A stretch of DNA of 64,000 nt from the human T2T-CHM13v2.0 reference genome, Homo sapiens. The stretch lies in NCBI RefSeq assembly GCF_009914755.1, contig NC_060935.1. One strand, written 5' to 3'. Positions within the stretch are counted from its first letter, which is position 1. Every line of letters starts with the position of its first letter. Positions 24,147 through 24,269 of this stretch are shown piece by piece. The notes under the pieces were generated by a model. That model was not told where the DNA came from. It saw only the letters and a list, made by a program, of their open reading frames with translations, and ran no database searches. The translations under genes and the position numbers were made by a program.

Positions 24147-24269
24147 ATGTTGTTAGAAATCTTAGGTCTAATAGTTTTCCTTGTAATACTAGTTGTTTTT
24201 CTATTGTTCTGCCACTTTAGTCAGCCTCCTCCACCAGGAGAAAGCCTTTTCTGTCCCTGCTGGGTATAA
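24147..24269 (+). CDS. Putative 40-aa single-pass membrane micro-protein upstream of env (hypothetical)
   Basis: Uninterrupted [46 protein letters not shown]; below the ORF track length cutoff; no expression evidence. Confidence 0.35.

What the first reader, a model, noticed from the sequence alone, without database searches (positions are those of the whole stretch)
24147..24269. Intact transmembrane micro-ORF directly upstream of env: candidate Vpu-like accessory gene of ERV3-group retroviruses
Seen: an uninterrupted 40-codon [43 protein letters not shown]. It has a ~21-residue hydrophobic N-terminal stretch, a PPPP linker and a Cys-rich tail, purine at -3 of its ATG, and its stop lies 2 nt before the env ATG, while gag, pol and env are all broken. 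Recalled knowledge: ERV3-1 Env begins MLGMNM; the codons ATG-AAY force a TGA in the +1 frame at the equivalent position, so this frame's stop would be conserved in ERV3-1. HIV-1 vpu has the same layout (small N-anchored membrane ORF ahead of env on the env mRNA), whereas gamma-like ERVs are usually treated as lacking accessory genes. Inference: an unannotated viroporin or restriction-antagonist-like peptide, or a uORF tuning Env translation. A 123-nt ORF can survive by chance and T-rich DNA gives hydrophobic translations.
Basis: partly seen in the sequence, partly recalled or inferred. Interest (0 to 1): 0.8.

Follow-up and report, generated by a model that had tools for sequence, protein, structure and literature searches.

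The report
Conserved micro-gene upstream of retroviral env
The 40-codon open frame just before the broken env gene of this ancient human provirus is a fossil copy of a small membrane-peptide gene that several old retrovirus lineages kept under selection, so these supposedly simple viruses seem to have carried an extra gene that I could not find described.

Summary
The ORF is real: window 24147-24269 (+), 40 codons, stop 2 nt before the env-frame ATG. An open frame this short is common; the evidence is comparative.

The same ORF sits just 5' of env in 99 examined copies in this genome. They fall into at least 7 sequence families of class-I ERVs with different pol ends and env starts. ATG is kept in 73 of 95 non-duplicate copies. 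A stop sits at the same column in 81 of 95, as TAA, TAG or TGA by family. Modal lengths are all multiples of three.

Between families, substitutions follow a coding pattern in this frame only: differences at codon positions 1/2/3 are 0.46/0.33/0.61. ML omega is 0.47, against 1.06 and 1.26 in the other frames. The LRT against omega=1 gives 27.1, against 0.16 and 2.15.

AlphaFold2 gives a confident helix for residues 2-25. No Pfam, PDB or literature match was found.

Against: within the ERV3-like family there is no codon signal. ERV3-1 itself has lost the ORF. The env splice acceptor could not be mapped. Function is untested.

Verdict: probably a genuine, extinct retroviral accessory micro-gene or peptide-dependent uORF. 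The window copy is an intact fossil.

The parts
24147..24269 (+). Micro-ORF: ATG, 40 codons, TAA stop. An intact fossil copy of the conserved pre-env small ORF.
   Evidence: sequence and translation; conservation and frame-specific purifying selection among related copies.
24150..24221 (+). Codons 2-25: predicted single transmembrane helix.
   Evidence: AlphaFold2 helix 2-25, pLDDT 95-96. (hydropathy 3.28). (T at codon position 2 in 87% of TM-core codons across copies, against 37% and 39% at positions 1 and 3).
24222..24266 (+). Codons 26-40: short tail with a proline run and the terminal Cys-x-Cys-Trp-Val/Ile motif. This is the part under the strongest amino-acid constraint.
   Evidence: omega 0.415 for the tail, 0.73 for the TM part. 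(Cys-x-Cys present in 22 of 28 intact copies, counted by me from the listing).
24272..24496 (+). Start of the broken env gene (signal peptide and SU N-terminus; open for 74 codons).
   Evidence: It aligns with the env start of L002/ERV3-1.
24009..24136 (+). Two tandem copies of a 64-nt unit between the end of pol and the micro-ORF (context; role unknown).
   Evidence: family D6, 73% identity. (the same duplication in many related loci). (no RNA-fold signal, z = +0.84; no Rfam match).
22615..23941 (+). Integrase part of the broken pol gene. The last pol-frame stop, read by eye, is at 23939-23941, so about 205 nt of non-pol sequence precede the micro-ORF.
   Evidence: Pfam rve, Integrase_H2C2 and zf-H2C2 on 22615-23412. 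(frames). The exact pol end is my reading.
17405..18027 (+). 5' LTR of the provirus that holds the ORF.
   Evidence: direct repeats D1-D5 with the 3' LTR. The LTR end was read.
26253..26883 (+). 3' LTR.

Best explanation
The ORF is a fossil copy of a real retroviral micro-gene. It encoded a 38-42-residue single-pass membrane peptide: a short N-terminus, a helix of about 20 residues, and a tail of about 15 residues that ends in Cys-x-Cys-Trp-Val/Ile. The gene lay immediately 5' of env in several related lineages of class-I (gamma-like) retroviruses.

Shown: the ORF (start, frame, length in whole codons, stop position) is ancestral to at least 7 sequence families, and it evolved between those lineages under purifying selection in this reading frame only. 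After integration the copies decayed neutrally; the window's copy happens to be still open.

Inferred: the peptide was translated from the spliced env mRNA as the first cistron. Its mostly weak start context would let ribosomes leak through to env. In the ERV3-like family the stop overlaps or abuts the env ATG, which would allow termination-reinitiation.

Inferred from the positive-inside rule: the peptide inserted with the N-terminus out and the basic, Cys-rich tail in the cytosol. It would then act in trans as an accessory membrane protein, modulating Env or a host membrane factor, as Vpu or papillomavirus E5 do. What it acted on is unknown.

The window's copy itself has no demonstrated present-day function.
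For: 1) Distribution. A DNA search of the genome found 34 matches and a protein search found 104. I examined 99 copies, all just upstream of an env start, in families with different flanks.

2) ORF anatomy is ancestral. ATG is kept in 73 of 95 non-duplicate copies. A stop codon sits at the same alignment column in 81 of 95, but as TAA/TGA (family A), TAG (B), TAA (C) and TGA/TAA (D). This holds although the env ATG lies 0-2 nt (A), about 35 nt (B) or about 50 nt (C, D) further on. Modal lengths are 120, 114/117/120, 114, 114, 120 and 120 nt; 64 of 95 copies have a length that is a multiple of three. A DNA-only MAFFT alignment puts 0% of between-family columns out of phase.

3) Selection. Between super-groups the differences at codon positions 1/2/3 are 0.456/0.332/0.607, and the bootstrap interval for omega is 0.16-0.41. 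The off-frames give 0.74 (0.41-1.25) and 0.90 (0.58-1.50). The DNA-level alignment gives the same pattern (0.464/0.354/0.614). Each of five family contrasts gives pN/pS of 0.33-0.54, with upper bounds of 0.70 or less, in this frame only. An ML codon model on 17 copies gives omega 0.469, against 1.058 and 1.261. The LRT against omega=1 gives 27.13, against 0.16 and 2.15.

4) Membrane peptide. The AlphaFold2 helix spans residues 2-25 at pLDDT 95-96. In the TM core, T at codon position 2 is 0.87, against 0.37 and 0.39 at positions 1 and 3. This is selection for hydrophobic residues, not for a uniform pyrimidine tract.

5) Start context. It is weak in most families: -3/+4 is T..T in 25 of 30 A copies and C..T in 12 of 14 C copies; it is G..T in 14 of 14 D copies.

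6) Alternatives at the RNA level. There is no RNA-structure signal over the ORF (z = +1.23) and no Rfam match.
Against: Within the ERV3-like family (16 full copies) the ORF shows no third-position excess (0.187/0.184/0.203, permutation p = 0.31), while pol (0.14/0.135/0.22) and env (0.146/0.17/0.288) of the same copies do. Within family A the values are 0.22/0.21/0.23.

About 13 ERV3-like copies share a stop at codon 2. Many of them are pol-deleted variants that still multiplied.

ERV3-1, whose env has been kept open, has lost the ORF. No locus with long flanks keeps both the ORF and a long env.

A rough 3' splice-site score, using weights I recalled, finds a good AG inside the ORF at +74 to +92 in every family. 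The best-scoring AG in ERV3-1 is one of these. An env mRNA spliced there would lack the ORF's ATG.

No transcript, ribosome-profiling or peptide evidence was available.

The 57 copies used for the codon tests were picked by me as frame-preserving out of 99, and the 17 for ML were picked to represent families. Pairwise counts are not phylogenetically independent. Overall omega (0.47; 0.73 in the TM part) is only moderate.
Confidence: 0.55

Rival explanations
1. It is a cis-acting regulatory uORF whose peptide sequence matters. The nascent peptide, above all its conserved C-terminus next to the stop codon, stalls or delays the terminating ribosome and so sets how much Env is made from the env mRNA. 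The peptide has no role of its own after release.
For: The strongest amino-acid constraint lies in the last 15 codons (omega 0.415, against 0.73 for the TM part). The stop position is fixed in every family. In the ERV3-like family the stop overlaps or abuts the env ATG. The start context is weak. Peptide-dependent uORFs are established in other viruses (cytomegalovirus UL4; recalled).
Against: The 20-residue hydrophobic segment is also maintained: T at codon position 2 is 0.87, while positions 1 and 3 are near saturation between families. A tunnel-acting arrest peptide does not need that. In families B, C and D the stop lies about 35-50 nt before the env ATG. Whether the ORF lies on the env mRNA at all is unknown.
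Confidence: 0.2
2. It is not a gene. The T-rich stretch is the branch point, polypyrimidine tract and AG of the env 3' splice site (or another cis element), which happens to read as a hydrophobic ORF. The open frame in the window survived by chance.
For: A branch-point-like TACTAAC followed by a pyrimidine-rich run and CAG|G lies inside the ORF in many ERV3-like copies. A rough score finds AGs at +74 to +92 in all families. Short ORFs are common. There is no codon signal within the ERV3-like family. 30 of 99 intact copies fits neutral decay.
Against: Constraint is periodic, not uniform: the pyrimidine share by codon position is 0.63/0.93/0.61. Omega is below 1 only in this frame, with LRT 27.1. 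ATG, stop position and whole-codon length differences are kept across families. The AG positions themselves are not conserved between families or among copies. A splice site inside the ORF and a coding function are not mutually exclusive.
Confidence: 0.12
3. The window's copy, or another intact copy, has been co-opted and makes a human microprotein today.
For: The frame is intact here while gag, pol and env are broken. 28 independent copies are intact genome-wide.
Against: The share of intact copies (30 of 99) is about what neutral decay gives for 120 nt. My rough estimate, from the roughly 8% LTR divergence, was 0.4. The one ERV3-like locus known to be under host selection has lost the ORF. 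The annotation supplied with the finding lists no + strand transcript here. No orthologue comparison was possible.
Confidence: 0.03

Closest known systems
HIV-1 / SIVcpz Vpu
   Same: A small accessory ORF placed immediately 5' of env. An N-terminal single membrane anchor with a short external end and a cytosolic tail (topology inferred here). A start context too weak to block env translation. Vpu's expression from the env mRNA is recalled knowledge.
   Different: 38-42 residues here against about 81 (recalled). No match to the Vpu profile (0 of 28 copies). The tail is too short for Vpu's two cytoplasmic helices and phospho-degron. Different retroviral genus (gamma-like class I). It is not shown that this ORF lies on the env mRNA.
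Bovine papillomavirus E5 (small transmembrane oncoprotein)
   Same: About 40 residues, almost wholly one hydrophobic helix, with a short C-terminal end carrying Cys-x-Cys (22 of 28 intact copies). The comparison with E5 rests on recall.
   Different: No sequence relation (no papillomavirus E5 family among the Pfam hits). E5 belongs to a DNA virus. The positive-inside rule predicts the opposite orientation here (tail cytosolic), so disulphide-linked dimers are not expected. Dimerisation is not shown.
Peptide-dependent viral uORFs (cytomegalovirus UL4 uORF2; Rous sarcoma virus leader uORFs)
   Same: A short ORF ahead of a main viral ORF, with a conserved C-terminus next to its stop codon and a stop close to the main ATG.
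   Different: Those uORFs are shorter and not transmembrane (recalled). Here a hydrophobic helix is under selection too.
Extra ORFs of gamma-type retroviruses: MLV glycoGag, and the ORF 5' of gag inferred for HERV-T (PMC5388530, passages read)
   Same: They show that gamma-like retroviruses can carry coding capacity beyond gag, pol and env.
   Different: Both lie at the gag end of the genome. Neither is a micro-ORF between pol and env.

Membership tests
Vpu (Pfam Vpu profile) | Sequence match to the family profile | tested here: not met
   none of the 28 intact copies matched Vpu at E up to 1; no Pfam family for the window's peptide.
Vpu | N-terminal single transmembrane anchor | tested here: met
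   helix 2-25, pLDDT 95-96; hydropathy 3.28.
Vpu | ORF directly 5' of env, adjacent to or overlapping it | tested here: met
   the stop lies 2 nt before, overlapping, or about 35-50 nt before the env ATG, depending on family.
Vpu | Translated from the bicistronic env mRNA by leaky scanning | not testable with these tools
   Only the start context could be read (mostly weak). The env splice acceptor is unmapped. The papers that may map it are not held.
Vpu | Cytoplasmic domain of about 50 residues with a phospho-serine degron | tested here: not met
   the tails are 14-16 residues, and no Asp-Ser-Gly motif occurs in any of the 28 listed peptides (read by eye). That this feature defines Vpu is recalled.
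Papillomavirus E5-type small transmembrane protein | Sequence match to an E5 profile | tested here: not met
   no E5 family among the 17 weak Pfam hits.
Papillomavirus E5-type small transmembrane protein | About 40-45 residues, one helix, C-terminal Cys-x-Cys | tested here: met
   38-41 residues, helix 2-25, Cys-x-Cys in 22 of 28 copies.
Papillomavirus E5-type small transmembrane protein | Disulphide-linked homodimer that activates a host receptor | not testable with these tools
   Needs expression and non-reducing gels.
Conserved-peptide regulatory uORF | Amino-acid-level conservation of the uORF | tested here: met
Conserved-peptide regulatory uORF | Lies in the 5' leader of the mRNA of the regulated ORF and stalls ribosomes | not testable with these tools
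   No transcript or translation data.
3' splice site (branch point, polypyrimidine tract, AG) | Pyrimidine constraint independent of codon phase | tested here: not met
   pyrimidine share 0.63/0.93/0.61 by codon position; position 2 is conserved while positions 1 and 3 are near saturation.
3' splice site (branch point, polypyrimidine tract, AG) | A conserved AG used as acceptor | tested here: inconclusive
   good-scoring AGs lie at +74 to +92 in all families, but at different columns, and many copies lack them. The weights were recalled. No transcripts.

The most novel reading that the evidence does not exclude
Several lineages of ancient gamma-like (class I) retroviruses, including the ERV3 relatives, were not 'simple' retroviruses. 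They shared an unrecognised accessory gene family: a roughly 40-residue membrane peptide encoded between pol and env. It would have been translated ahead of Env from the same mRNA and have acted on Env or on a host membrane factor. That makes it an independent, much older counterpart of Vpu, of which about 30 open copies still lie in the human genome.
Probability: 0.5. Interest if true: 0.85.

Novelty: new variant of a known kind. Interest (0 to 1): 0.72.

Why it matters
Gamma-type endogenous retroviruses are treated as having only gag, pro-pol and env. A small ORF kept under frame-specific purifying selection across at least seven ERV sequence families would add a gene to that plan.

It would also give a second, independent case of the 'small membrane ORF in front of env' layout known from lentiviruses.

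It would matter for how ERV env genes, including co-opted ones, are translated. It would also explain about a hundred recurring hydrophobic micro-ORFs that ribosome-profiling, immunopeptidome and microprotein catalogues may meet.

I found no description of it. The peptide strings gave 0 papers. Searches on accessory or small ORFs of ERVs and gammaretroviruses gave nothing on it. The older ERV3, HERV-E and RTVL-I sequence papers are not in the library, so an early mention cannot be excluded.

Tried and rejected
1) My first idea was that the ORF is only the env 3' splice site (branch point, pyrimidine tract, AG). I rejected it as the sole explanation because the constraint is codon-periodic and omega is below 1 in one frame only. 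A splice site inside the ORF is still possible.

2) RNA structure. The fold of 24140-24280 gave z = +1.23 and the fold of the upstream 64-nt repeats gave z = +0.84. There was no Rfam match.

3) Natural 'spliced' copies that would reveal the acceptor. None was found. L059 joins a leader to codon 8 of the ORF, but it is a single copy and the junction is not at the donor GT. For the 17 ERV3-like loci that I could pair with a leader hit (distances worked out by hand from the coordinates), the leader lies 3.0-11.2 kb from the ORF, never within 1 kb.

4) Papers that may map the ERV3 env acceptor are not held. Reviews that I searched for terms say nothing on it.

5) Homologues elsewhere. The representative library gave 7 weak hits. 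PDB gave only transmembrane noise at E of 0.69 or more. The ESM Atlas gave no hit above 0.84.

6) Complex prediction with two copies returned no verdict (score 0.03). It says nothing either way.

7) Naming families B-G by known loci or by the supplement of PMC12884080 failed, because only summary counts are held.

Full report
OBSERVATION. The window holds an old class-I provirus. Its LTRs lie at about 17405-18027 and 26253-26883, and the LTR repeat blocks are 85-96% identical. At 24147-24269 (+) there is an ATG, 40 sense codons and TAA. The peptide reads [40 protein letters not shown]. The stop is followed by GT and then by the ATG of the env frame at 24272. The integrase part of pol (Pfam rve, Integrase_H2C2 and zf-H2C2) ends about 205 nt upstream. 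Gag, pol and env are all split into short frames. By itself the ORF proves nothing: 146 stop-to-stop frames of 40 or more codons overlap the 11 kb around it.

RELATED COPIES. A DNA search of the window's own genome with 24100-24420 gave 34 matches. Locus L002 on chr7 has an env open for at least 551 aa beginning MLGMNM. By that sequence and its place I take it to be ERV3-1. It is only 74% identical to the window here.

A protein search with the 40-residue peptide gave 104 matches. I looked at 30 + 13 + 60 loci. Four (L101, L107, L109, L110) were spurious. Six rows were never fetched. Four of the examined copies are segmental duplicates (L005, L011, L029, L050). That leaves 99 copies examined, 95 without the duplicates.

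They fall into at least seven sequence families, with my labels:
- A: ERV3-like, 34 copies, plus two recombinants (A2) with another pol end and another env.
- B: 29 copies. C: 14. D: 14. E: 3. F: 2. G: 1.

The families differ in what lies upstream (the end of pol) and downstream (the env start). Eight kilobases of a family-B provirus gave no blastn match to the window's provirus at E 1e-8.

Natural intact examples:
- L009: MWLEILRLVVFLVILTVLLLFCRCAQPPLPGKALFCPCWI
- L062: MLWVGIGTVIFLFFLIVILLFCCFSQPLGKHLFCPCWV
- L074: MWQEVLTIVVFLLLLVIILLFFRYYSPPGCKFLCPCWV
- L096: MWQVVLAVVVFLFFLIMLILFFRHSSPPGKEFLCRCWI
- L078: MWIEVLSLVAILVILLVLLLCYNFCQSLLPGKDLFCPYFV

ORF ANATOMY ACROSS COPIES.
- The ATG is kept in 73 of 95 copies.
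- The codon at the column of the stop is a stop in 81 of 95, but its identity differs by family: A has TAA 13 and TGA 12, B has TAG 21, C has TAA 13, D has TGA 8 and TAA 4.
- The modal ATG-to-stop lengths are 120 nt (A, E, F, G), 114 nt (C in 14 of 14, D in 9 of 14) and 114/117/120 nt (B).
- 64 of 95 copies have a length that is a multiple of three.
- The stop keeps its place after Cys-x-Cys-Trp-Val/Ile, although the env ATG overlaps or abuts it in A and lies about 35 nt (B) or about 50 nt (C, D) further on.
- 30 of 99 copies are fully intact: A 8/34, A2 1/2, B 9/29, C 6/14, D 2/14, E 2/3, F 2/2, G 0/1. One of the 30 (L022) reaches the stop only through compensating frameshifts.
- Recurrent lesions are TGG to TAG/TGA at codon 2 and, in C and D, a CpG-type CGA to TGA at codon 23.

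A third of copies intact is about what neutral decay of 120 nt gives. The window's copy being open is therefore unremarkable once the ancestor had the ORF.

SELECTION. I took the 57 copies whose read-through translation keeps the frame, chosen by eye; 42 of 99 were dropped for frameshifts, truncation or duplication. I made a codon alignment with X at stops.

Between super-groups (1076 pairs):
- Differences at codon positions 1/2/3 are 0.456/0.332/0.607.
- pS is 0.77 and pN is 0.37. The bootstrap interval for omega over codons is 0.16-0.41.
- The same alignment read one or two bases out of frame gives 0.74 (0.41-1.25) and 0.90 (0.58-1.50).

A DNA-only alignment, made without translation, gives 0.464/0.354/0.614 and no out-of-phase column. 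Five separate contrasts (A vs E+F, A vs B, A vs C+D, B vs C+D, C vs D) each give pN/pS of 0.33-0.54 in this frame. The off-frames give 0.68-1.17 with intervals that include 1.

A maximum-likelihood codon model (GY+F1X4, 17 copies from six families, fixed DNA tree, stops blanked) gives omega 0.469 in frame, and 1.058 and 1.261 out of frame. Twice the log-likelihood difference against omega=1 is 27.13, against 0.16 and 2.15.

About half of that tree is terminal, post-integration branch length, so the viral-phase omega must be lower. By region, omega is 0.73 for the N-terminus plus helix and 0.415 for the tail. In the helix core, T occupies codon position 2 in 87% of codons, against 37% and 39% at positions 1 and 3. 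Positions 1 and 3 are close to saturation between families. That is the signature of 'stay hydrophobic'.

RESULTS AGAINST.
- Within the ERV3-like family the signal is absent. In 16 full copies the diversity is 0.187/0.184/0.203 (permutation p = 0.31), while pol (0.14/0.135/0.22) and env (0.146/0.17/0.288) of the same copies show the coding pattern. The non-coding interval upstream gives 0.169/0.146/0.178. Within A the differences are 0.22/0.21/0.23.
- About 13 ERV3-like copies share a stop at codon 2. Many are variants with a large pol deletion that still multiplied.
- ERV3-1 has stops at codons 6 and 26 and a one-base insertion, while its env is open.
- No locus with long flanks has both an intact micro-ORF and a long env.

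In the ERV3 lineage itself the gene may already have been dispensable.

IS IT A SPLICE SITE INSTEAD? Many ERV3-like copies carry TACTAAC, a pyrimidine-rich run and CAG|G inside the ORF. A rough score, with weights I recalled rather than a trained model, finds good AGs at +74 to +92 in every family. It also finds upstream candidates at -27 (C, 10 of 13 copies), about -98 (B) and -52/-117 (A). In ERV3-1 the best-scoring AG is the internal one.

The internal AGs are at different columns in different families and are missing in many copies. A uniform pyrimidine constraint is contradicted by the 0.63/0.93/0.61 pyrimidine shares.

I could not map the real acceptor. The ERV3 cDNA papers are not held. 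No copy derived from a spliced RNA turned up. An acceptor inside the ORF would not undo the selection evidence, but it would require another message for the peptide.

WHAT THE PEPTIDE LOOKS LIKE. AlphaFold2 on the alignment of 28 natural intact copies gives a helix for residues 2-25 (pLDDT 95-96) and a less confident tail (72, then 55). Hydropathy peaks at 3.28.

Acidic or neutral residues precede the helix. Arg, His or Lys follow it. By the positive-inside rule, the short N-terminus faces out and the tail faces the cytosol (inference). The tail holds Cys next to the membrane, a Pro-Pro-Gly stretch and a terminal Cys-x-Cys (22 of 28 copies).

No Pfam family matched, no solved structure, and no relative in viral contigs. 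The representative library gave only 7 weak hits. I fetched six of them: 5 are human-like read-through ORFs of these same elements and one is a repeat protein of unknown origin.

MECHANISM, WITH ODDS.
- About 0.55: a trans-acting accessory membrane peptide, translated as the first cistron of the env mRNA. Its mostly weak start context (T..T in 25 of 30 A copies, C..T in 12 of 14 C copies) would allow leaky scanning. In family A the stop overlaps or abuts the env ATG, which would allow reinitiation.
- About 0.2: a peptide-dependent cis-regulatory uORF of env.
- About 0.12: no gene, only a splice or other cis element plus chance.
- About 0.03: present-day co-option.

Shown: ancestral ORF, frame-specific purifying selection, helix. 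Inferred: the mRNA, the mode of translation, the topology, the target.

COMPARISON AND NOVELTY. In layout it works like Vpu, and in size and build like papillomavirus E5. It is a member of neither family (see the membership table). Among gamma-type viruses the extra coding regions I know of are at the gag end: glycoGag, and the HERV-T ORF 5' of gag (PMC5388530, passages read).

Paper searches found no description:
- Peptide strings: 0 papers.
- Accessory or small ORFs of ERVs and gammaretroviruses.
- ERV3-1 with Ribo-seq, uORF or microprotein terms. None of the 12 listed papers held the term ERV3-1.
- ERV with viroporin: 0 papers.
- PMC12884080: passages and the one held supplement, which is summary tables only.

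Supplements of other papers and the subscription literature of the 1980s-1990s were not visible, so an early mention cannot be excluded.

I rate it a new variant of a known kind: a retroviral small accessory ORF ahead of env. Interest is 0.72.

Noticed in passing
window 24009-24136: Two tandem copies of a 64-nt unit (73% alike) lie between the end of pol and the micro-ORF. The same duplication shows up as secondary matches in many ERV3-like loci, and its sequence recurs upstream of the ORF in families E and F. There is no RNA-fold signal (z = +0.84) and no Rfam match.
   Followed up: partly
window 20108-20193: A 43-nt tandem duplication, 98% identical, in the gag region of the provirus (family D7).
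   Followed up: no
window 18037-18054: The primer-binding-site-like stretch 10 nt after the 5' LTR begins TGGGGGCTCC. By recall it looks like a tRNA-Pro site rather than the tRNA-Arg site that the name HERV-R implies. The element may belong to a sister group of ERV3; it is 74% identical to ERV3-1 at the pol-env junction.
   Followed up: no
loci L010, L013, L020, L022, L024, L025, L027, L030 (against window 20480 to about 23162): A subgroup of ERV3-like copies shares one large internal deletion that removes most of pol. Most of them carry a stop at codon 2 of the micro-ORF and a second deletion in env. It looks like a non-autonomous variant that multiplied in trans.
   Followed up: partly
L019 (chr16) and L086 (chr18): These two elements carry the ERV3-like micro-ORF plus env-start module (about 160 nt, 80% identical to the window). 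Their pol end and env body differ and do not match the window's provirus. They are apparent recombinants between ERV lineages.
   Followed up: partly
L059 (chr6) against L121 (chr1): One family-B copy joins the leader directly to codon 8 of the micro-ORF, about 12 nt before a GTGAGT donor. This is a deletion of about 7.7 kb. No second copy with this junction was found among 40 matches.
   Followed up: yes
protein P0002 of the representative library: A 513-residue predicted protein made of about seven tandem repeats of roughly 72 residues. Each repeat holds a hydrophobic stretch followed by Cys-Gln-Ser-Pro-Pro-Pro-Arg, which weakly matches the micro-ORF profile (E 1.2e-7). Its origin is unknown.
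   Followed up: no
window 19023-19115 and 17696-17765: According to the annotation supplied with the finding, one exon of the minus-strand lncRNA LINC02755 lies inside the provirus (leader/gag region), and a RefSeq enhancer lies inside its 5' LTR.
   Followed up: no
L009 and L011 (chr19, 37 kb apart): A segmentally duplicated pair of ERV3-like proviruses. Both have the micro-ORF intact and identical at the peptide level.
   Followed up: no
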